From contig OZ243972.1 in the NCBI GenBank assembly GCA_965214705.1, positions 1,760,001-1,824,000 of the forward strand: DNA of 64,000 bases, read 5' to 3'. A model generated the notes under the pieces. That model did not search any database, was not told where the DNA came from, and saw only the letters and a program-made list of their open reading frames with translations. The DNA is from Alphaproteobacteria bacterium. GTDB taxonomy: Bacteria > Pseudomonadota > Alphaproteobacteria > UBA828. This document shows, in pieces, positions 16,534 to 34,949 of the stretch. Position 1 is the stretch's first letter; every line of letters starts with the position of its first letter. A program made the position numbers and the translations under genes.

Positions 16534-17496
16534 CAAAACTCTTTGCCATTGAGACGGCACGCGCGGCGTGCTCCGGTCGACGGGGCGGGAAAGTTGCGCA
16601 ACGCGATGCAAGGAAAACGGCTTCGCGCGCCGCGGGGCACGTCATCAATTGCTGACGATCCTGGTCACGGTGCGGCCCTCGAGAACGTCCGCAACGTCCA
16701 CCGCCTCCAACGTGCCGTGTTCCAGAAGAGCGGTGGCGAGACTGTGAAGCTGCCCCTTGCGACTGTTTAGAATGTCGCGTGCACGGCGTTCCGCATCACT
16801 CATCAAGAGGCGCACGCCTGCCTCGGCCTCCGCGACCGTAAGGCCGGCCTCGGGACCGCCAAGCAAGTCGTATGCGATCCTTTCCGCCGCCTTGATGTCG
16901 GACGTCATCGCCTCGGTCATCGCGTCATCGCCGCTTGCGATCTCCTCGGCGATCAGACCGCCCAGAGCAATGGCGAGCTCCGCCTCCTTGCGTGCTCGCC
17001 GTGCTTCGTCGTCCAGATCGCCATCCGCTGGAACGCGGGTCACGCTGCCAAGCACGCCCCAGCGCGAGACGATGGTCACTTGCAGGATCTCCCCGCCCGC
17101 CGGGAGAGTGGCGGCGATCAGGGCATGACCGGCCTCGTGATAGGCGGTCAACCGCCGGTCTTCATCGCTGATTTTCGGGACGCGGTTCTCGGAGAGAGGG
17201 TCGATCGTGGCGGCGGCAACCAGCCCGGCCAGCAACGTAAGCACCGCAATGCCGCTGATGTTGACTTGAACGAAGCCGCTACGCGGAGTTAGCGGCGTAG
17301 AGTTCATTCATTTCCGAGGCGTCGCGGGTGCCGTTTGTTCTGTGCGTTCGCTTCCCGGTTGCGTCAGTGGCGCTCCGCCCGTCGGGTGGCGGATCCCCAG
17401 CAGCCTCCCGATCACCAGTGGTTAGCATCGACCCCTGCGACGGACCGTCGCCGGATCGGTCCGGCGGCGCGCCGTCGCGATCCAGGGAGATCGATA

Positions 17497-18375
17497 ATGA
17501 CCGGGACCGCGTGCGACACGAACACCGTCACCCCTCTTCGCCAGCGCATGGAGGAGCAGCTCCGCATCGCCAATCTGGCCGCGAGCACGTCCAAGGCCTA
17601 CATCTGCGAGATCAAGAACCTGGCCAGGTACTACGACGCCTCGCCGGACGAGCTCGACGCCGAGCAGGTGCGCCAGTGGTACCTGGGGCGGATCGACAAG
17701 GGGCTCAGTCCGGGCACGACCAACGTCTCCTTCGCCGCGCTGAACTTCCTCTACATCGACACACTCGGCTGGCCTGACCATGTCGCCGGCCTGCGCTCCC
17801 GCAAGAAGCCCGGCAAGCTGCCGCGCTACATGTCGGAGCAGGAGGTCGAGCACCTCATCCTTGCGACACCCGACCTCCGCCACCGTGCTGCCATTGTCAC
17901 CGGCTATGGCGGCGGGCTCCGCATCTCCGAGACCTTGGCCATCAAGGTCGGCGACATCCTGTCGGAGAAGAAGCTGCTGCACATCCCCTCCGGCAAAGGC
18001 GGCACCGAGAGAATGGCACCGTTGCCGGACATCGTCATCCACTACTTGCGCGTCTACTACAGGAACATCTGGCCGCGTCCGACGAGCTGGCTCTTCTACG
18101 GCGTCTCGCTCGACAGGCCCATCGCAACGGAGACCTTGCAGGCCGCCTTCAGGAGGGCGCGCGACATTGCCGAGCTCGACCGCAGCTACACCTTCCATTG
18201 CCTGCGCCATTCGGCGGCGACCCATCTCCTCGAGCGCGGCGGCGATATCGAGGTGATCCGGGACATGCTCGGCCATCGAAGCGCGAACACGACCCGTCAC
18301 TACGCCCGCGTCACCGGCAAGATGTTCGAGGGCCTCGACCACCCGATCTCAGGCTTCGCAGCGTTGCGCAACTGA
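17497..18375 (+). CDS. Tyrosine recombinase (N-terminal SAM-like domain plus catalytic domain) of the IS91-like element
   Basis: PLRQRM, GGGLRISE, GKGG, HCLRHS.ATHLLE.G, MLGH...TT..Y. Confidence 0.9.
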   Translation: MTGTACDTNTVTPLRQRMEEQLRIANLAASTSKAYICEIKNLARYYDASPDELDAEQVRQWYLGRIDKGLSPGTTNVSFAALNFLYIDTLGWPDHVAGLRSRKKPGKLPRYMSEQEVEHLILATPDLRHRAAIVTGYGGGLRISETLAIKVGDILSEKKLLHIPSGKGGTERMAPLPDIVIHYLRVYYRNIWPRPTSWLFYGVSLDRPIATETLQAAFRRARDIAELDRSYTFHCLRHSAATHLLERGGDIEVIRDMLGHRSANTTRHYARVTGKMFEGLDHPISGFAALRN

Positions 18376-18678
18376 CGGCGCGTGGAGGCCGAACGCGCGG
18401 GCGTGGCGGAGATCTTCCGCCGCGCCGGCGCCGCTTTCCGTGAGCGCCACAAAGGGCGCATCGACGCCGCCCGGCTCAAGGTCATGGGCGCCATCGAGGC
18501 GTGCCGCACCGCCGTGCTCGGCGGCCACATGTACGCCTGCGAGGGCTGCGGGCGCGAGCATCCGCTCTTCAGATACCATGAGCACGGTGGCACCGAATCG
18601 ATTCTGGCGGTTAGACAAGCTCGGAGAGAAGGCCAGCACCTTCTCTCCGAGCGGAATCGTCAACAACGGAGTGGACGG

Positions 18679-19875
18679 ATGTCGGATGGTCCAGACACGA
18701 CCGCGCTGACAGGCGCAAGTAGTAGCACGATTTATGTCGCGGTGGAGATCAGCCTCAAATCGTGGATCGTTGGCGTGCATTGCCCGGATGCCTCGGGTGG
18801 CAGCATCAGCATCCACACACTGGCTGCTGCCGACACGGCGGGACTGTTGGATCTCGTCGGGTCGGTGCGGGAACGGGTGGCGAGGGAGCTCGGCGCCCGT
18901 CCTCGGGTGATGCTGACCTACGAGGCGGGCTACGAGGGGTTCTGGCTTGCCCGCGATATCGAGCGCCGTGACGCGGAGATCGATATCTTCATGAACGATC
19001 CGGCGAGCCTGCGGGTGAACCGGCGCGCCAAGAAGAAAAAGACCGACCGTATCGACGCGAGGAGGATGGTTCGGGCTCTGAAGGCATGGGACCAAGGCGA
19101 TTCGGAGGCCATGTCCTGGGTGCGCGTGCCCGATGTGGACCAGGAGGATGCCAAGCGCCTGCTGCGCGAGAGGGACACGCTGATCAGCGAGCGTACCCGC
19201 GTCAACAACCGGATCAAAGGGCTCTTGCAGTTGCACGGCATCTTCGATCTGGCGCCGCGCAAGCCGGACTTCCTCGAACGCCTCGCGACCGCGCGGACGG
19301 GCTATGGGGCGCCGTTGCCGCCGCGTGCGCGGGCAGAGATTGAGAGGGCGGTGGGGATGCTTCGCCTGGTTGAGGAGCATATCGAGATGATCGAGGCCGA
19401 GAAGAGGGCCCTGCTGAAGGCTGGCCGGAAAGCCCAGGACGCGACCAATCGTGACGGGACGGCGATGATCGCGGCGCTTACGCGCATCCATGGCATCGGC
19501 CTCAATGACGCCACACTGCTGGCTGGCGAGGTGTTCTATCGGGACTTCCGCAATCGCCGGGAGTTGGGCAGCTGGGCCGGGTTGACGTCGGTGCCGTGGG
19601 CGAGCGGAGATGTCGACCACGATCTTGGCATCAGCAAGGCCGGCCCCTCGCATGTCAGGAAGCACATGATCCAGATGGCTTGGCGCTGGCTGAAGCTGCA
19701 ACCGGAAAGCGCGATCACGAAGTGGTTCCACGCCTACGTCGCCAGGGATGCCGGTGGCGGGAGGGACCGGCGAGCGAGGAAGCGGGCGATCGTGGGGGTC
19801 GCGCGCAAGCTGCTGATCGCGCTGTGGCGCTATGCCACCCAAGGACTGGTGCCTGAGGGCGCCATCGTCTCCTGA
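18679..19875 (+). CDS. IS110-family recombinase/transposase
   Basis: RuvC-like AVEIS / YEAG / KTDRIDA (first acidic residue Glu) and C-terminal IHGIG, WAGL..VPWASG, ISKAG, ARKLL. Confidence 0.92.
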   Translation: MSDGPDTTALTGASSSTIYVAVEISLKSWIVGVHCPDASGGSISIHTLAAADTAGLLDLVGSVRERVARELGARPRVMLTYEAGYEGFWLARDIERRDAEIDIFMNDPASLRVNRRAKKKKTDRIDARRMVRALKAWDQGDSEAMSWVRVPDVDQEDAKRLLRERDTLISERTRVNNRIKGLLQLHGIFDLAPRKPDFLERLATARTGYGAPLPPRARAEIERAVGMLRLVEEHIEMIEAEKRALLKAGRKAQDATNRDGTAMIAALTRIHGIGLNDATLLAGEVFYRDFRNRRELGSWAGLTSVPWASGDVDHDLGISKAGPSHVRKHMIQMAWRWLKLQPESAITKWFHAYVARDAGGGRDRRARKRAIVGVARKLLIALWRYATQGLVPEGAIVS

Positions 19876-20220
19876 GGGCACCGGCCGAACGAACGGGAAA
19901 ATACAGGAGGTTCCGACGTGGTCGGACGCGGCCGCGGAGGATGCCGGGCAAGGCGTGTGACCGGGCAAGAGTTGGGTCGCCGCTTGGCACCGTTCTACAG
20001 ATGGGTCCCGCCTCCCGGAACGTCACCACCGCTTGGATGCGGTATTGGGGTCACGGAGCCGGCAAGCGCCGGAGTTCCGAACCGGATAAGAGCTGAGCAG
20101 CGTGGCGGATCGCTGCGTGGAAACGACGTTCTGCCTGGACATCGGCCGCGGATTCGAGTGGAGAGATTGCGAATGCCATTGACGTAGATGAAGCCGGGCC
20201 TTGCGGAGAGAGCTCATAAG
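19876..20220 (+). ncRNA. Candidate bridge RNA/seekRNA region (exact RNA ends unknown)
   Basis: 345-nt structured non-coding region with segments matching the target (19964..19974, 19990..19999) and the circle junction (20041..20045, 20086..20092). Confidence 0.7.
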
Positions 20221-21535
20221 AACTCCTGCCGCAACCGCCACTGCCCCACCTGCCAGGGTCTCGCCGCCAACCTCTGGAGCGAGGAGCGCGCCGGGGACAT
20301 CCTGCCGGTGCCCTACTTCCATGTGGTCTTCACCCTGCCCAAGGAGGTTGCCGCCATTGCCTTCTGCAACCGCAGGGTGGTGTTCGACATCCTCTTCCGG
20401 GCCGTCGCCGAGACCCTGCGCACCATCGCCGCCGATCCCCGCCACGGCGGCATGCGCATCGGCGGCACCGCGGTCCTCCATACCTGGGATCAGAAGCTCC
20501 GCTTCCACCCGCACCTGCACGTGGTCGTGCCCAACGCGGGCTTCGACGTAGACAGTGGCGAGTGGAAGACGGGGAGCACCACCTTCCTCGCCCCCGTCAA
20601 GGTCCTCGGCAGCCTGTTCCGCCGCCTCTTCCTCAAGGAGCTCGCCCGCGCCCACGGCCGGGGGGACCTGGAGTTCCACGGCACCCTCGCCCACCTCGCC
20701 AATCCCGGCGAGTTCCACGCCACGCTTGCCGCCGCCCGGGCCAGGGACTGGGTGGTCTACGCCAAGCGGCCCTTCCGCGGGCCTGAGCAGGTCTTCCGGT
20801 ACCTCTCGCACTACACGCACAGGATCGCCATCTCCGACAGCCGCATCGTCTCCTTCGACGGCGAGACGGTCTCCTTCCGCCACCGAAAGCCCAAGGCGCC
20901 GGGGCAGAGAAAGCCGCGCTACGGCATCGCCACCGTGAGCGCCGACGAGTTCATCCGCCGCTTCCTGAGGCACGTCCTGCCGGACGGCATGCACCGCATT
21001 CGCTACTTCGGCATCCTCGCCAACGGCTGCCGCGCCAGCACGCTGGAGAGAGCACGCCAGGCTCTCGGCGCCCTCGGCTGCGCCGCCCCCGAGGGAAGCG
21101 TGGACGGCGCTCAGGCCGAGCCCGACGAAGAGCCCGAGATCGGCACCGCGCCCGTGGCCTGCCCCCACTGCGGCGGCGTCATGCGCCTCGTCCGCGAAAT
21201 CCGCCGCCGCCATGAGCCCCGCTCGACGCGCGGCCCGCCGGCGCTGCCGCCGACCCACAGGGGGAAACCGTGAGACGCCCGCTCGCTTCGGCCCCGCGCA
21301 ACGGCGCCAAAGCGCCGACGCACGACCGAACCTGTCTCCGCTTGAGCCGGGCTGACAGCCCTCGGCTCACACCCCGCTCAGTCCTCGCAGCGTGCGCCCG
21401 CATGCCTGCCGAAAGACCGGCGCGAGCGTCGATTTTATGCGCAACTCTGCTGCCGGTGGATGCCGCCTGACGCTGACATCAGCGCACTTTCCACATAGCT
21501 CAACTTCGCCTCTCGTGGCCCGCGGCTTCGTTCAA

Positions 21536-27115: not shown

Positions 27116-27637
27116 TGTTACCTCCCTGCACCGTATATGGGCAGCGCCTCGGCGGCGCGCCCTCATGCATGCACCAAACGACCATGCAGCGGCGGGCGCG
27201 CCACGCGCATGAGCGCACGGCGCGGCGCCGCCGGGATGTGAGAGCCCGCCTAGGCGGCGAGCTGCTCGGACTCGGGATCGTGAATGAAGAAGACCTTGCG
27301 GACGGTCTCCTCGATGACCCAGGTCACCTTCTCGCCCTTGTTCGTGTAGAAGATGTCGCCGGCGGTATAGGTGTGGGTGGTGCCGTCCTGTTCGGTCACA
27401 TGGATCTTGAACGAAGCCGCTACGCGGAGTTAGCGGCGTAGAGTTCATTCATTTCCGAGGCGTCGCGGGTGCCGTTTGTTCTGTGCGTTCGCTTCCCGGT
27501 TGCGTCAGTGGCGCTCCGCCCGTCGGGTGGCGGATCCCCAGCAGCCTCCCGATCACCAGTGGTTAGTATCGACCCCTGCGACGGACCGTCGCCGGATCGG
27601 TCCGGCGGCGCGCCGTCGCGATCCAGGGAGATCGATA

Positions 27638-28516
27638 ATGACCGGGACCGCGTGCGACACGAACACCGTCACCCCTCTTCGCCAGCGCATGGAGGAGCAG
27701 CTCCGCATCGCCAATCTGGCCGCGAGCACGTCCAAGGCCTACATCTGCGAGATCAAGAACCTGGCCAGGTACTACGACGCCTCGCCGGACGAGCTCGACG
27801 CCGAGCAGGTGCGCCAGTGGTACCTGGGGCGGATCGACAAGGGGCTCAGTCCGGGCACGACCAACGTCTCCTTCGCCGCGCTGAACTTCCTCTACATCGA
27901 CACACTCGGCTGGCCTGACCATGTCGCCGGCCTGCGCTCCCGCAAGAAGCCCGGCAAGCTGCCGCGCTACATGTCGGAGCAGGAGGTCGAGCACCTCATC
28001 CTTGCGACACCCGACCTCCGCCACCGTGCTGCCATTGTCACCGGCTATGGCGGCGGGCTCCGCATCTCCGAGACCTTGGCCATCAAGGTCGGCGACATCC
28101 TGTCGGAGAAGAAGCTGCTGCACATCCCCTCCGGCAAAGGCGGCACCGAGAGAATGGCACCGTTGCCGGACATCGTCATCCACTACTTGCGCGTCTACTA
28201 CAGGAACATCTGGCCGCGTCCGACGAGCTGGCTCTTCTACGGCGTCTCGCTCGACAGGCCCATCGCAACGGAGACCTTGCAGGCCGCCTTCAGGAGGGCG
28301 CGCGACATTGCCGAGCTCGACCGCAGCTACACCTTCCATTGCCTGCGCCATTCGGCGGCGACCCATCTCCTCGAGCGCGGCGGCGATATCGAGGTGATCC
28401 GGGACATGCTCGGCCATCGAAGCGCGAACACGACCCGTCACTACGCCCGCGTCACCGGCAAGATGTTCGAGGGCCTCGACCACCCGATCTCAGGCTTCGC
28501 AGCGTTGCGCAACTGA
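27638..28516 (+). CDS. Tyrosine recombinase of the IS91-like element
   Basis: Identical protein to 17497..18375. Confidence 0.9.
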   Translation: MTGTACDTNTVTPLRQRMEEQLRIANLAASTSKAYICEIKNLARYYDASPDELDAEQVRQWYLGRIDKGLSPGTTNVSFAALNFLYIDTLGWPDHVAGLRSRKKPGKLPRYMSEQEVEHLILATPDLRHRAAIVTGYGGGLRISETLAIKVGDILSEKKLLHIPSGKGGTERMAPLPDIVIHYLRVYYRNIWPRPTSWLFYGVSLDRPIATETLQAAFRRARDIAELDRSYTFHCLRHSAATHLLERGGDIEVIRDMLGHRSANTTRHYARVTGKMFEGLDHPISGFAALRN

Positions 28517-28522
28517 CGGCGC

Positions 28523-29764
28523 GTGGAGGCCGAACGCGCGGGCGTGGCGGAGATCTTCCGCCGCGCCGGCGCCGCTTTCCGTGAGCGCCACAAAGGGCGC
28601 ATCGACGCCGCCCGGCTCAAGGTCATGGGCGCCATCGAGGCGTGCCGCACCGCCGTGCTCGGCGGCCACATGTACGCCTGCGAGGGCTGCGGGCGCGAGC
28701 ATCCGCTCTTCAACTCCTGCCGCAACCGCCACTGCCCCACCTGCCAGGGTCTCGCCGCCAACCTCTGGAGCGAGGAGCGCGCCGGGGACATCCTGCCGGT
28801 GCCCTACTTCCATGTGGTCTTCACCCTGCCCAAGGAGGTTGCCGCCATTGCCTTCTGCAACCGCAGGGTGGTGTTCGACATCCTCTTCCGGGCCGTCGCC
28901 GAGACCCTGCGCACCATCGCCGCCGATCCCCGCCACGGCGGCATGCGCATCGGCGGCACCGCGGTCCTCCATACCTGGGATCAGAAGCTCCGCTTCCACC
29001 CGCACCTGCACGTGGTCGTGCCCAACGCGGGCTTCGACGTAGACAGTGGCGAGTGGAAGACGGGGAGCACCACCTTCCTCGCCCCCGTCAAGGTCCTCGG
29101 CAGCCTGTTCCGCCGCCTCTTCCTCGAGGAGCTCGCCCGCGCCCACGGCCGGGGGGACCTGGAGTTCCACGGCACCGTCGCCCACCTCGCCAATCCCGGC
29201 GAGTTCCACGCCACGCTTGCCGCCGCCCGGGCCAGGGACTGGGTGGTCTACGCCAAGCGGCCCTTCCGCGGGCCTGAGCAGGTCTTCCGGTACCTCTCGC
29301 ACTACACGCACAGGATCGCCATCTCCGACAGCCGCATCGTCTCCTTCGACGGCGAGACGGTCTCCTTCCGCCACCGAAAGCCCAAGGCGCCGGGGCAGAG
29401 AAAGCCGCGCTACGGCATCGCCACCGTGAGCGCCGACGAGTTCATCCGCCGCTTCCTGAGGCACGTCCTGCCGGACGGCATGCACCGCATTCGCTACTTC
29501 GGCATCCTCGCCAACGGCTGCCGCGCCAGCACGCTGGAGAGAGCACGCCAGGCTCTCGGCGCCCTCGGCTGCGCCGCCCCCGAGGGAAGCGTGGACGGCG
29601 CTCGGGCCGAGCCCGACGAAGAGCCCGAGATCGGCACCGCGCCCGTGGCCTGCCCCCACTGCGGCGGCGTCATGCGCCTCGTCCGCGAAATCCGCCGCCG
29701 CCATGAGCCCCGCTCGACGCGCGGCCCGCCGGCGCTGCCGCCGACCCACAGGGGGAAACCGTGA
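28523..29764 (+). CDS. IS91-family HUH/Y2 transposase (intact)
   Basis: CEGC...NSCRNRHCPTC Zn site, HVVFTLP, LHTW...HPHLH (HUH), YLSHY (Y2), CPHCG. Confidence 0.93.
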   Translation: MEAERAGVAEIFRRAGAAFRERHKGRIDAARLKVMGAIEACRTAVLGGHMYACEGCGREHPLFNSCRNRHCPTCQGLAANLWSEERAGDILPVPYFHVVFTLPKEVAAIAFCNRRVVFDILFRAVAETLRTIAADPRHGGMRIGGTAVLHTWDQKLRFHPHLHVVVPNAGFDVDSGEWKTGSTTFLAPVKVLGSLFRRLFLEELARAHGRGDLEFHGTVAHLANPGEFHATLAAARARDWVVYAKRPFRGPEQVFRYLSHYTHRIAISDSRIVSFDGETVSFRHRKPKAPGQRKPRYGIATVSADEFIRRFLRHVLPDGMHRIRYFGILANGCRASTLERARQALGALGCAAPEGSVDGARAEPDEEPEIGTAPVACPHCGGVMRLVREIRRRHEPRSTRGPPALPPTHRGKP

Positions 29765-30026
29765 GACGCCCGCTCGCTTCGGCCCCGCGCAACGGCGCCA
29801 AAGCGCCGACGCACGACCGAACCTGTCTCCGCTTGAGCCGGGCTGACAGCCCTCGGCTCACACCCCGCTCAGTCCTCGCAGCGTGCGCCCGCATGCCTGC
29901 CGAAAGACCGGCGCGAGCGTCGATTTTATGCGCAACTCTGCTGCCGGTGGATGCCGCCTGACGCTGACATCAGCGCACTTTCCACATAGCTCAACTTCGC
30001 CTCTCGTGGCCCGCGGCTTCGTTCAA

Positions 30027-33104: not shown

Positions 33105-33407
33105 CGGCGCGTGGAGGCCGAACGCGCGGGCGTGGCGGAGATCTTCCGCCGCGCCGGCGCCGCTTTCCGTGAGCGCCACAAAGGGCGCATCGACGCCGCC
33201 CGGCTCAAGGTCATGGGCGCCATCGAGGCGTGCCGCACCGCCGTGCTCGGCGGCCACATGTACGCCTGCGAGGGCTGCGGGCGCGAGCATCCGCTCTTCA
33301 GATACCATGAGCACGGTGGCACCGAATCGATTCTGGCGGTTAGACAAGCTCGGAGAGAAGGCCAGCACCTTCTCTCCGAGCGGAATCGTCAACAACGGAG
33401 TGGACGG

Positions 33408-34604
33408 ATGTCGGATGGTCCAGACACGACCGCGCTGACAGGCGCAAGTAGTAGCACGATTTATGTCGCGGTGGAGATCAGCCTCAAATCGTGGATCGTT
33501 GGCGTGCATTGCCCGGATGCCTCGGGTGGCAGCATCAGCATCCACACACTGGCTGCTGCCGACACGGCGGGACTGTTGGATCTCGTCGGGTCGGTGCGGG
33601 AACGGGTGGCGAGGGAGCTCGGCGCCCGTCCTCGGGTGATGCTGACCTACGAGGCGGGCTACGAGGGGTTCTGGCTTGCCCGCGATATCGAGCGCCGTGA
33701 CGCGGAGATCGATATCTTCATGAACGATCCGGCGAGCCTGCGGGTGAACCGGCGCGCCAAGAAGAAAAAGACCGACCGTATCGACGCGAGGAGGATGGTT
33801 CGGGCTCTGAAGGCATGGGACCAAGGCGATTCGGAGGCCATGTCCTGGGTGCGCGTGCCCGATGTGGACCAGGAGGATGCCAAGCGCCTGCTGCGCGAGA
33901 GGGACACGCTGATCAGCGAGCGTACCCGCGTCAACAACCGGATCAAAGGGCTCTTGCAGTTGCACGGCATCTTCGATCTGGCGCCGCGCAAGCCGGACTT
34001 CCTCGAACGCCTCGCGACCGCGCGGACGGGCTATGGGGCGCCGTTGCCGCCGCGTGCGCGGGCAGAGATTGAGAGGGCGGTGGGGATGCTTCGCCTGGTT
34101 GAGGAGCATATCGAGATGATCGAGGCCGAGAAGAGGGCCCTGCTGAAGGCTGGCCGGAAAGCCCAGGACGCGACCAATCGTGACGGGACGGCGATGATCG
34201 CGGCGCTTACGCGCATCCATGGCATCGGCCTCAATGACGCCACACTGCTGGCTGGCGAGGTGTTCTATCGGGACTTCCGCAATCGCCGGGAGTTGGGCAG
34301 CTGGGCCGGGTTGACGTCGGTGCCGTGGGCGAGCGGAGATGTCGACCACGATCTTGGCATCAGCAAGGCCGGCCCCTCGCATGTCAGGAAGCACATGATC
34401 CAGATGGCTTGGCGCTGGCTGAAGCTGCAACCGGAAAGCGCGATCACGAAGTGGTTCCACGCCTACGTCGCCAGGGATGCCGGTGGCGGGAGGGACCGGC
34501 GAGCGAGGAAGCGGGCGATCGTGGGGGTCGCGCGCAAGCTGCTGATCGCGCTGTGGCGCTATGCCACCCAAGGACTGGTGCCTGAGGGCGCCATCGTCTC
34601 CTGA
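33408..34604 (+). CDS. IS110-family recombinase/transposase
   Basis: Identical protein to 18679..19875. Confidence 0.92.
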   Translation: MSDGPDTTALTGASSSTIYVAVEISLKSWIVGVHCPDASGGSISIHTLAAADTAGLLDLVGSVRERVARELGARPRVMLTYEAGYEGFWLARDIERRDAEIDIFMNDPASLRVNRRAKKKKTDRIDARRMVRALKAWDQGDSEAMSWVRVPDVDQEDAKRLLRERDTLISERTRVNNRIKGLLQLHGIFDLAPRKPDFLERLATARTGYGAPLPPRARAEIERAVGMLRLVEEHIEMIEAEKRALLKAGRKAQDATNRDGTAMIAALTRIHGIGLNDATLLAGEVFYRDFRNRRELGSWAGLTSVPWASGDVDHDLGISKAGPSHVRKHMIQMAWRWLKLQPESAITKWFHAYVARDAGGGRDRRARKRAIVGVARKLLIALWRYATQGLVPEGAIVS

Positions 34605-34949
34605 GGGCACCGGCCGAACGAACGGGAAAATACAGGAGGTTCCGACGTGGTCGGACGCGGCCGCGGAGGATGCCGGGCAAGGCGTGTGACCGGGCAAGAG
34701 TTGGGTCGCCGCTTGGCACCGTTCTACAGATGGGTCCCGCCTCCCGGAACGTCACCACCGCTTGGATGCGGTATTGGGGTCACGGAGCCGGCAAGCGCCG
34801 GAGTTCCGAACCGGATAAGAGCTGAGCAGCGTGGCGGATCGCTGCGTGGAAACGACGTTCTGCCTGGACATCGGCCGCGGATTCGAGTGGAGAGATTGCG
34901 AATGCCATTGACGTAGATGAAGCCGGGCCTTGCGGAGAGAGCTCATAAG
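34605..34949 (+). ncRNA. Candidate bridge RNA/seekRNA region, second copy
   Basis: Same sequence as 19876..20220. Confidence 0.7.

What the first reader, a model, noticed from the sequence alone, without database searches (positions are those of the whole stretch)
18571..20220. IS1111-type element with a readable bridge/seekRNA in its 3' non-coding end
Seen: copy 2 supplies the empty target CCGCTCTTC|AACTCCTGCC. In the 345-nt non-coding region, GGCAAGAGTTG (19964..19974) matches the target bottom strand GGCAGGAGTTG at 10/11. CCGTTCTACA (19990..19999) matches the top strand CCGCTCTTCA at 8/10, one difference being a possible G:U pair. The two segments face each other across an internal loop closed by GGT.GCC/GGCACC inside and CGGG/CCCG plus GTGAC/GTCAC outside. 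Downstream, GGTAT (20041..20045) and ATAAGAG (20086..20092) match the bottom and top strands of the predicted circle junction CATAAG|AGATACC and flank a CCGGC/GCCGG hairpin. Established: IS110/IS1111 recombinases use such bispecific RNAs, encoded downstream of the gene in IS1111. Inference: a complete programmable RNA-guided recombinase with donor, target and guide all visible here; its first catalytic residue is Glu (AVEIS).
Basis: partly seen in the sequence, partly recalled or inferred. Interest (0 to 1): 0.9.

Follow-up and report, generated by a model that had tools for sequence, protein, structure and literature searches.

The report
RNA-guided insertion sequence inside another transposon
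This is a real, multi-copy jumping gene of the known IS110/IS1111 kind that carries its own guide RNA, and here that RNA directs it into the transposase gene of a different, hugely expanded jumping gene.

Summary
Window 18571..20220 is a 1650-bp IS110/IS1111-type element. It has 7-nt and 3-nt terminal extensions, a 6-bp subterminal repeat, a 398-aa recombinase gene and a 345-nt 3' non-coding region. It sits in the zinc-finger region of an IS91-family transposase gene, and an empty site lies at 28703..28721.

Within this one element the four guide matches are only weakly above chance. Both target matches were reached in 17 of 1000 shuffles, and the donor 5-mer in 922 of 1000.

The comparative evidence is decisive. 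A covariance model finds the same RNA beside 28 related recombinase genes. Guide 1 fits its own right flank (19 elements) and guide 2 its own left flank (16 elements) better than foreign flanks; 0 of 100,000 permutations reached either observed value. Both donor segments change with the element ends.

Two corrections. The donor has a 2-nt core AG, which meets AA in this target.

Glu at the first catalytic position is supported and is typical of this clade.

Verdict: a new member of a known kind. The most interesting extra is that this clade often targets genes of other insertion sequences.

The parts
18571..20220 (+). Whole insertion sequence, 1650 bp, counted with one copy of the donor core AG at its left end
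   Evidence: Compared with the empty site at 28703..28721. In the genome there are 14 full-length copies at 99.9-100% identity, 4 diverged full-length copies and 3 copies split by another insertion.
18562..18570 (+). Left half of the target (CCGCTCTTC), inside the Zn_Tnp_IS91 coding region
18571..18577 (+). Left terminal extension AGATACC (7 nt): core AG plus the programmable donor positions ATACC
   Evidence: The same 7-nt layout is seen in 16 related elements. The 7/3 asymmetry is the IS1111 hallmark.
18578..18583 (+). Left subterminal inverted repeat ATGAGC
   Evidence: It is the complement of 20212-20217.
18619..18652 (+). Perfect 14-bp hairpin in the leader upstream of the recombinase gene; role unknown
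18679..19875 (+). Recombinase gene, 398 aa. Putative catalytic residues are E23, E82, D123 and D126 in the RuvC-like domain and S309 in the C-terminal domain.
   Evidence: Pfam and NCBIfam, 31-sequence alignment, model, Foldseek top hit ISCro4 synaptic complex, profile alignment to IS621 and ISCro4.
19876..20220 (+). 3' non-coding region, 345 nt
19939..20100 (+). Bridge/seekRNA scaffold as covered by covariance model R1. The true RNA ends are unknown.
   Evidence: L024:1564-1725 corresponds to window 19939-20100
19952..19962 (+). 5' strands of the helices that close the target loop: GGCG (19952-55, pairs with 20009-12) and ACC (19960-62, pairs with 20004-06)
   Evidence: Paired in 100% and 97.6% of cells, with compensatory changes at 4 pairs.
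19963..19974 (+). Target guide 1 (5' side of the loop): complementary to the top strand of the last left-flank base, the core AA and the right flank CTCCTGCC. It matches 10 of 11 at the IS91 site and 11 of 11 at the istB site of the 97% variant.
19975..19991 (+). Inner hairpin of the target loop
   Evidence: The three conserved pairs are paired in 100% of cells; one pair is CG in 22, UA in 5 and UG in 1.
19992..20000 (+). Target guide 2 (3' side of the loop), GTTCTACAG: same sense as the left flank plus core.
20004..20012 (+). 3' strands of the closing helices (GGT and CGCC)
20028..20043 (+). Hairpin ACCGC / GCGGT; its 3' strand runs into the donor guide
   Evidence: All five pairs form in the five rows of this family. 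My alignment columns did not register the equivalent hairpins of other families (56-67% of cells paired).
20041..20045 (+). Donor guide GGTAT: complementary to ATACC of the left end
   Evidence: There are four classes of left end, each with a matching RNA segment.
20059..20072 (+). Hairpin CCGG / CCGG between the two donor guides
   Evidence: All 4 pairs show changes on both sides.
20086..20092 (+). Donor guide ATAAGAG: same sense as the right end ATAAG plus core AG
   Evidence: There are five classes of this segment, each equal to its own right end.
20212..20220 (+). Right subterminal repeat GCTCAT (20212-17) and 3-nt terminal extension AAG (20218-20)
20221..20230 (+). Target core AA and right half of the target (CTCCTGCC)
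28703..28721 (+). Unoccupied target in a second copy of the IS91-family element
33300..34949 (+). Second identical copy of the element in the window, at the same target in a third IS91-family copy
   Evidence: G000:C1:1793300-1794949

Best explanation
This is an active or recently active IS110/IS1111-type insertion sequence.

Proposed mechanism (inferred by analogy, see below):
- The recombinase works with an RNA transcribed from the 3' non-coding region.
- One internal loop of that RNA holds two guides. Guide 1 pairs with the top strand of the right half of the target. Guide 2 pairs with the bottom strand of the left half.
- A second region holds two short guides that pair with the two ends of the excised circle around the core AG.
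- Recombination between the circle junction (CATAAG-AG-ATACC) and the target (TTC-AA-CTCC) inserts the element in one orientation without a duplication.

Shown here: the anatomy, the copy number, the empty site, and covariation of guides with targets and ends.

Inferred by analogy with ISEc11, IS621 and ISCro4: that the RNA is made, binds the protein and directs strand exchange.
For: 1. Family assignment.
- NCBIfam 'IS110 family RNA-guided transposase', E 3.5e-51.
- Pfam Transposase_20 and DEDD_Tnp_IS110.
- Model with pLDDT 82.8 whose best PDB match is the ISCro4 bridge-recombinase synaptic complex, E 6e-9.
- Profile alignment to IS621 and ISCro4 across the catalytic Ser region.

2. Mobility.
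- 21 full-length copies counting split ones, 14 of them at least 99.9% identical.
- Occupied IS91 copies fall in at least 4 flank haplotypes. The main haplotype (12 occupied, 58 empty) and two rarer ones also exist empty.
- Two diverged copies sit at other sites.

3. Natural reprogramming.
- The 86% variant changes 5 of 11 guide-1 letters, and its new guide matches 8 of 8 letters of its own right flank.
- The relative L028 (88% amino-acid identity) has a guide 1 matching its right flank over 9 consecutive letters, 10 counting the last left-flank base.

4. Permutation tests on longest exact matches.
- Guide 1 against right flanks, 19 elements: own mean 6.84, foreign mean 3.38; 0 of 100,000 permutations reached the observed sum.
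- Guide 2 against left flanks, 16 elements: own 4.62, foreign 2.62; 0 of 100,000.
- An earlier 9-element version gave 0 of 20,000 and 0.003.

5. Donor guides.
- Five classes of the 3' donor segment each equal their own right end.
- Four classes of left end each have the complementary RNA segment: exact 5-mer in 5 and exact 4-mer in 10 of 16 elements.

6. Conserved RNA.
- Model R1 hits 28 loci with E from 6e-40 to 4e-6. Every hit lies on the strand of the recombinase gene, and where the gene position was checked it lies downstream of it.
- 86.7% of cells are paired, against 73.9% in shuffles.

7. The order of the two target guides and their overlap at the insertion point match the IS1111 seekRNA description.
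Against:
- Single-sequence folding gives no signal. The z-scores are -1.23 and -0.56, and the minimum-energy fold pairs the guides internally.
- No Rfam family matched at its threshold.
- At the site that holds 19 of the 21 copies, neither guide is perfect: 10 of 11 and 8 of 10. The target core AA differs from the donor core AG.
- In the 86% variant the guide-1 match is shifted by one base relative to the junction.
- Many occupied IS91 copies share one haplotype, so part of the copy number could come from IS91 copying itself with the insert.
- Right ends of relatives were located with the help of the RNA's own donor 5-mer, so that agreement is partly built in. Left ends were accepted only if they carried AGAT.
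- Alignment A4 was fitted to the model structure.
Confidence: 0.9

Rival explanations
1. The RNA guides target choice only, as in the short seekRNA model. The ends are recognised by the protein through the subterminal repeats, and the two donor-like segments are conserved scaffold that merely resembles the ends.
For: An 82-nt seekRNA holding only the target matches sufficed for ISEc11 movement. In this element alone GGTAT is at chance (922 of 1000 shuffles) and ATAAGAG is weak (120 of 1000). The donor segments are only 4-7 nt long.
Against: The donor segments change with the ends across relatives: five classes of the 3' segment and four classes of left end. Durrant et al. report donor-binding nucleotides in IS1111 bridge RNAs. 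The test is partly circular for the right end.
Confidence: 0.12
2. The element is now inert. Its many copies arose mostly because the IS91-family host element multiplied after one or a few insertions.
For: 12 occupied copies share the flank haplotype of 58 empty copies over 800 bp. The IS91-family unit has about 97 copies.
Against: The insertion splits the IS91 transposase gene. Occupied copies occur in at least 4 IS91 haplotypes, and besides the main one two rarer haplotypes also exist empty. Variants sit in two different IS21 istB sites. 14 copies are at least 99.9% identical with an intact gene.
Confidence: 0.2
3. The matches between the non-coding region and the target or ends are coincidence, and target choice is made by the protein.
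For: Single-element statistics are weak, and folding z-scores are not significant.
Against: Guides track flanks across 19 and 16 elements, with 0 of 100,000 permutations reaching the observed sums. There are compensatory changes in the scaffold helices.
Confidence: 0.02

Closest known systems
IS1111-family elements with a seekRNA (ISEc11, ISKpn4, ISPa11, ISPst6; Siddiquee et al. 2024, PMC11187229)
   Same: Long non-coding region downstream of the gene. Subterminal inverted repeats with 7-nt left and 3-nt right extensions. The top-strand-complementary guide lies 5' of the bottom-strand one, and the two overlap at the insertion point. Close relatives are naturally retargeted. No target duplication.
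   Different: The protein is 398 aa against 330-350. The subterminal repeat is 6-7 bp against the usual 11-13. Glu replaces the first Asp. The C-terminal motif reads GLTSVPWASG rather than GL-P----S(t)G. Model R1 found nothing beside the enterobacterial IS5708-type genes in L062 and L063.
IS621 and ISCro4 bridge recombinases with bridge RNA (Durrant et al. 2024, PMC11208160; PDB 8wt6, 9t56)
   Same: Same fold. Same C-terminal catalytic Ser region and KTD..DA motif. The RNA has separate target and donor guides around a 2-nt core.
   Different: The RNA is encoded at the right end, not the left. The order of the guides is reversed. The donor guides flank a hairpin rather than lying in a simple internal loop. 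The core is AG, and it tolerates AA in the target here. The protein is about 60-70 aa longer.
IS4321/IS5075 and the attC-targeting IS1111 members (known to me from titles in the reference lists seen; details recalled)
   Same: IS1111-type elements that choose a sequence inside another mobile element as their target.
   Different: Those elements target terminal repeats of Tn21-type transposons or integron attC sites. This clade's sites lie inside coding sequences for conserved motifs of other transposases: the IS91 zinc finger, the IS21 IstB Walker A and C-terminal motifs, DDE_Tnp_1, IS110 and IS6.

Membership tests
IS110 superfamily (bridge/seekRNA-guided DEDD recombinases) | N-terminal RuvC-like DEDD catalytic domain | tested here: met
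   Pfam DEDD_Tnp_IS110 matches residues 104-185 only. NCBIfam NF033542 matches residues 33-389. The model has beta1 at 17-24 and beta4 at 76-82. E82, D123 and D126 are invariant in 31 of 31 sequences. The first acid is Glu, not Asp (next row).
IS110 superfamily (bridge/seekRNA-guided DEDD recombinases) | First catalytic residue Asp at the end of beta1 (the GID motif) | tested here: not met
   E23 is invariant in 31 of 31 sequences. In sister family B the Pfam profile places the equivalent Glu at profile position 4, which is the Asp of GID in canonical IS110 genes of the same genome. BLASTP against an IS5708-type protein instead put S25 opposite the Asp. I read this as a conservative Asp-to-Glu variant, not as exclusion from the family.
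IS110 superfamily (bridge/seekRNA-guided DEDD recombinases) | C-terminal Tnp domain with conserved Ser-Gly | tested here: met
   Pfam Transposase_20, E 8.2e-12. S309 and G310 are invariant. They align with the ESG of IS621 and ISCro4.
IS110 superfamily (bridge/seekRNA-guided DEDD recombinases) | Non-coding RNA with guides complementary to both strands of the target and of the donor | tested here: met
   Sequence and covariation evidence only. The RNA itself was not observed.
IS110 superfamily (bridge/seekRNA-guided DEDD recombinases) | Circular intermediate and RNA-dependent recombination | not testable with these tools
IS1111 group | Subterminal inverted repeats, usually 11-13 bp (Durrant et al. 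give 7-17 bp) | tested here: inconclusive
   Present but short: ATGAGC / GCTCAT, 6 bp perfect (7 of 8). Relatives have 7 bp.
IS1111 group | Asymmetric terminal extensions, 7 bp on the left and 3 bp on the right | tested here: met
   AGATACC on the left and AAG on the right. The same layout is seen in families B and C and in L044.
IS1111 group | Long non-coding region downstream of the gene | tested here: met
   345 nt downstream against 108 nt upstream.
IS1111 group | Top-strand-complementary target match lies 5' of the bottom-strand match | tested here: met
   19963-74 precedes 19992-20000.
IS1111 group | Transposase of 330-350 aa related over its full length to that of IS1111, with the motif GL-P----S(t)G | tested here: not met
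   398 aa; the clade is typically about 395 aa. The motif reads GLTSVPWASG, with the Pro displaced. No tree with named IS1111 and IS110 references was built, and the phylogeny in the paper's supplement could not be seen.
Rfam RNA families | Match at the family's gathering score | tested here: not met
   5 matches up to E = 10, none near threshold; the best was 27.1 bits against 59.

The most novel reading that the evidence does not exclude
This roughly 395-aa Glu-variant clade of RNA-guided insertion sequences may habitually retarget its guides to conserved coding motifs of other transposases, so that it lives as a parasite of other insertion sequences.

Insertion sites observed:
- All 6 sites of the three families closest to this element lie in genes of other ISs: the IS91 zinc finger, two positions in IS21 istB, DDE_Tnp_1 twice, and an IS110-type gene.
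- 4 of about 13 more distant relatives also lie in or next to such genes.

Such sites would give the element a multi-copy, harmless, horizontally travelling landing pad, and insertion would knock out the host IS. Here about 19 of about 97 IS91-family copies are hit.

The same data hint that the system tolerates a mismatched core (AG against AA) and imperfect guides in nature.
Probability: 0.3. Interest if true: 0.6.

Novelty: new member of a known kind. Interest (0 to 1): 0.4.

Why it matters
RNA-guided IS110/IS1111 recombinases are being developed as genome-insertion tools, and new orthologues with readable donor, target and guide are useful starting points.

This genome offers a natural reprogramming series. 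The same scaffold is aimed at several different targets, and empty and filled sites lie side by side.

The recombinase clade has Glu instead of the first catalytic Asp. The main target is mismatched in both the core and the guides. These features bear on specificity rules.

Biologically, this is one mobile element using an RNA guide to insert into, and disable, the transposase genes of others.

None of this changes what is known of the mechanism.

Tried and rejected
- **Rfam scan of 18300..20500 at E up to 10:** nothing near threshold.
- **Single-sequence folding of the non-coding region:** Energy therefore does not decide between them.
- **Search for the element in plasmids:** DNA search gave only short, distant pieces.
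- **Genome contigs with the protein:** only 3 loci.
- **PDB search with the single protein:** nothing. The profile search was needed.
- **Promoter and terminator scan of 18400..20400:** none found.
- **Alignment A3 (trimmed region):** structurally worse than A1 and not used for the model.
- **Perfect guide-1 sites in the genome:** outside copies of the element itself there are only 3 unoccupied perfect 11-mers, one of them a second istB site. This does not settle which target is the 'intended' one.
- **Which product keeps which core:** I considered whether left junctions always keep the donor core and right junctions the target core. My left ends were selected by the motif AGAT, so the pattern is biased and I make no claim.
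- **Literature:**
  - 'EEDD' with 'IS110': 0 papers.
  - IS110 / IS91 / 'inserted within' / 'transposase gene': 55 papers, 12 listed, none on this theme.
  - 'IS110 family' / nested / 'transposase genes' / 'target site' / 'other IS': 9 papers, none relevant.
  - One 2026 preprint, read in passages only, did not treat it.
- **Supplements:** closed. Supplementary phylogenies and tables of PMC11187229 and PMC11208160 may already list this clade, its Glu or its targets.
Full report
**What is there.** Window 18571..20220 is a 1650-bp element that begins AGATACC and ends CTCATAAG.
- It splits an IS91-family transposase gene. The 63 residues upstream and the 350 downstream carry the two halves of Pfam Zn_Tnp_IS91, followed by Y2_Tnp, and a tyrosine-recombinase gene lies in front.
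- The uninterrupted 19-mer target occurs once in the window, at 28703..28721.
- A second identical copy of the element lies at 33300..34949.
- The element holds a 398-aa gene (18679..19875) and a 345-nt non-coding region (19876..20220).

**The protein.**
- NCBIfam calls it an 'IS110 family RNA-guided transposase' (E 3.5e-51, residues 33-389).
- Pfam finds Transposase_20 and the second half of DEDD_Tnp_IS110.
- A model built on 31 homologues (pLDDT 82.8) has as its best PDB match the ISCro4 bridge-recombinase synaptic complex (E 6e-9).
- A profile of the homologues aligns with IS621 and ISCro4 across the catalytic Ser region. The single sequence found nothing in the PDB.
- The family is large. 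5874 proteins had E at or below 1e-10 among the 8000 scored, and most are about 395 aa long.
- In 31 of 31 aligned sequences E23, E82, D123, D126, S309 and G310 are invariant.

**The first catalytic residue.** The Pfam profile does not reach the N-terminus of this protein. In sister family B of the same genome it starts at profile position 4 on the equivalent Glu. In canonical IS110 genes of the same genome, position 4 is the Asp of GID. A BLASTP alignment with an IS5708-type protein gave a register two residues off, with S25 opposite the Asp. I could not inspect coordinates. No paper in the library holds both 'EEDD' and 'IS110'.

**Copies and targets in the genome.** The genome is 7.9 Mb in 3 contigs.
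- It holds 14 full-length copies at 99.9-100% identity, four diverged full-length copies (97, 96, 92 and 86%), three copies split by another insertion, and a partial copy at 89%.
- Nineteen of the 21 sit at the same position of IS91-family copies.
- The IS91-family unit is itself hugely expanded. 78 BLAST hits span the empty junction, and 18 left and 19 right halves end at it.
- Occupied copies fall in at least four flank haplotypes. The main one (12 occupied, 58 empty) and two rarer ones also occur empty. Several insertions were therefore independent, though part of the copy number may come from IS91 copying.
- The 97% variant lies in an IS21 istB gene at the Walker A codons. There its right flank matches guide 1 at 11 of 11 positions and its left flank matches guide 2 poorly.
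- The 86% variant lies near the 3' end of another istB gene.

**Ends and core.** Two paralogous families in the same genome, B and C, have both filled and empty sites.
- In family C, and in family B judged against one of its five empty sites, a 2-nt AG is shared by target and element. The other B empty sites differ by a base or two around the junction.
- The donor junction is CATAA(G/A)-AG-AT(C/A)C in all three families.
- In the element under study the donor core is AG and the target core is AA. The left junction carries AG and the right junction AA.
- Counted with one core copy, the element has a 7-nt left extension, a 3-nt right extension and a 6-bp subterminal repeat (ATGAGC / GCTCAT).
- The 7/3 asymmetry is what Siddiquee et al. 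give for the IS1111 family. The repeat is shorter than their usual 11-13 bp.

**Is the RNA reading more than chance?** On this element alone, only weakly. In 1000 shuffles the 10/11 match was reached 66 times, the 8/10 match 421 times and both 17 times. The 7-mer donor match appeared 120 times and a 5-mer donor match 922 times. Folding energies are not unusual, and Rfam has no matching family.

The comparative evidence settles it.
- Within the genome, the 86% variant differs from the reference at 5 of the 11 guide-1 positions. The new guide matches 8 consecutive letters of its own right flank, with a one-base shift relative to the junction that I cannot explain. One of its two guide-2 changes follows its left flank.
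- L028, a relative with 88% protein identity in a Defluviicoccus MAG, has a fully different guide 1. It matches its right flank over 9 consecutive letters, or 10 counting the last left-flank base.
- Families B and C and three further loci show the same layout.

**The covariance model.** Model R1, built on 11 sequences, found the RNA in 18 further loci. In all it matched 28 loci at E from 6e-40 to 4e-6, every time on the strand of the recombinase gene. It found nothing beside two enterobacterial IS5708-type genes.
- Of the 28 loci, 23 gave a right end and 5 did not.
- I dropped L055, L061, L047 and L038 as near-duplicates or too short.
- On the remaining 19, the longest exact match between guide 1 and the element's own right flank averages 6.84, against 3.38 for foreign flanks.
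- On the 16 with a left end, guide 2 averages 4.62 against 2.62.
- In both tests 0 of 100,000 permutations reached the observed sum. The earlier 9-element test agreed.

**Donor guides.**
- The 3' segment comes in five forms (ATAAG-, ATAAA-, ATACA-, ATATA- and ATGTG-, each followed by AG), and each equals its own right end.
- This agreement is partly built in, because I located right ends with that 5-mer. However, the sites found are preceded by C and by a 7-nt repeat. That repeat recurs inverted, with at most one mismatch, at the left end in the 16 elements that have a left end, and the sites are followed by sequence matching guide 1.
- The left ends come in four forms (ATACC, ATCCT, ATGCT and ATCCC). 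The RNA holds the complementary 5-mer in 5 and the complementary 4-mer in 10 of 16 elements. For L035 the columns I read missed it, though its row shows the complement.

**Structure.**
- RNAalifold and pair counts support the inner hairpin (19975-77 with 19989-91) and the CCGG/CCGG hairpin, in which all 4 pairs show double changes.
- They also support a closure of the target loop by GGCG(19952-55):CGCC(20009-12) and ACC(19960-62):GGT(20004-06).
- On 28 sequences these two closing helices are paired in 100% and 97.6% of cells, with compensatory changes at four pairs.
- A4 was fitted to my structure, which favours it. On the unfitted A1 the figures were 100% and 100% against 87% and 68%.
- With this closure the target loop is a symmetric 12/12 internal loop (19963-74 and 19992-20003).

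**Comparison with what is known.**
- The gene-then-RNA order, the 7/3 extensions, the order and overlap of the two target guides and the natural retargeting of relatives match IS1111-type seekRNA elements.
- Target plus donor guides around a core match the bridge-RNA model. That work notes that IS1111 members carry the RNA in the right end and hold donor-binding bases in a more complex loop.
- The differences are a longer protein, a short subterminal repeat, Glu for Asp, a displaced Pro in the C-terminal motif, and a mismatched core at the main target.
- I did not build a tree with named references, so placement in the IS1111 branch is untested.

**Targets are often other insertion sequences.**
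- The six sites of the closest families are the IS91 zinc finger, IS21 istB twice, DDE_Tnp_1 twice (L028; family B) and an IS110-type gene (family C).
- Among the more distant relatives, L034 is in a DDE_Tnp_1 frame and L050 in an IS6-type domain. L032 lies about 160 nt downstream of an IS110-type gene, and L013 about 250 nt from an IS630-type gene.
- L037, L029, L035 and L046 have non-IS neighbours. Four gave no family match, and L044 and L047 sit beside a palindrome that looks like a repeat element.
- This is a tendency, not a rule, and these genomes are rich in insertion sequences.
- My three literature searches found no treatment of it.

**Limits.**
- L040 comes from a genome flagged unpublished (G279). 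It is one row among 19, 16 and 28, and no claim depends on it.

**Verdict.** This is a well-preserved new member of a known kind of RNA-guided insertion sequence. It comes with an unusually informative set of natural variants and a possibly new ecological habit.

Noticed in passing
whole genome G000; in the window the IS91-family copies around 17335-21273, 27400-29800 and 33300: The IS91-family unit (a tyrosine-recombinase gene followed by a Zn-finger Y2 transposase gene) is present in roughly 97 copies. 78 BLAST hits span the empty site and about 19 copies are occupied. 58 of the empty copies are identical over 800 bp. This looks like a very recent burst.
   Followed up: partly
G000:C1:1873053-1874866: One copy is followed directly by a second copy of its last 165 nt (element positions 1486-1650). 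The repeat is joined at an internal AG after the normal right end. It looks like a one-ended or off-target recombination product.
   Followed up: no
G000:C2:518994-523403, C3:1713791-1718200, C3:687404-691813: Three copies of the element are themselves interrupted, at three different positions, by another element of about 2.7-3.3 kb whose ends read GTAAGCGGTA... So there are insertion sequences nested three deep.
   Followed up: no
window 18382..19875: The insertion leaves the first 63 codons of the IS91 transposase in frame with the leader and the recombinase gene, giving one 497-codon open frame. The same open frame of 499 codons is reported for most copies. This could allow read-through expression from the host element, or it could be chance.
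   Followed up: no
window 18619..18652: A perfect 14-bp inverted repeat with a 6-nt loop lies in the leader, 27 nt upstream of the recombinase start codon. Its role is unknown. No promoter-like or terminator-like site was found in 18400..20400.
   Followed up: partly
G000 genome-wide: There are 54 matches to the Pfam IS110 catalytic domain in one genome. They comprise several canonical Asp-type families besides the three Glu-type families A, B and C.
   Followed up: partly
right ends of families B and C and of L042, L044, L047: A TTGACA or TTGACT hexamer lies 17-19 nt before the right end in these relatives. It is placed like the -35 box of a promoter completed at the circle junction, as described for ISEc11. 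In the element under study the nearest TTGACG is 34 nt from the end, and a weaker TTGCGG lies 13 nt from it.
   Followed up: no
G000:C1:3548637 region (minus strand), locus L096: A second istB site identical to the target of the 97% variant exists and is unoccupied. Only two other perfect 11-mer matches to guide 1 exist outside copies of the element.
   Followed up: partly
L094 (G000:C1:638300-640800), ORF 11-1063: The gene upstream of family B's target combines a Pfam DruA (Druantia) match with DDE_Tnp_1_assoc. This is an unexpected pairing in an ISAs1-like element.
   Followed up: no
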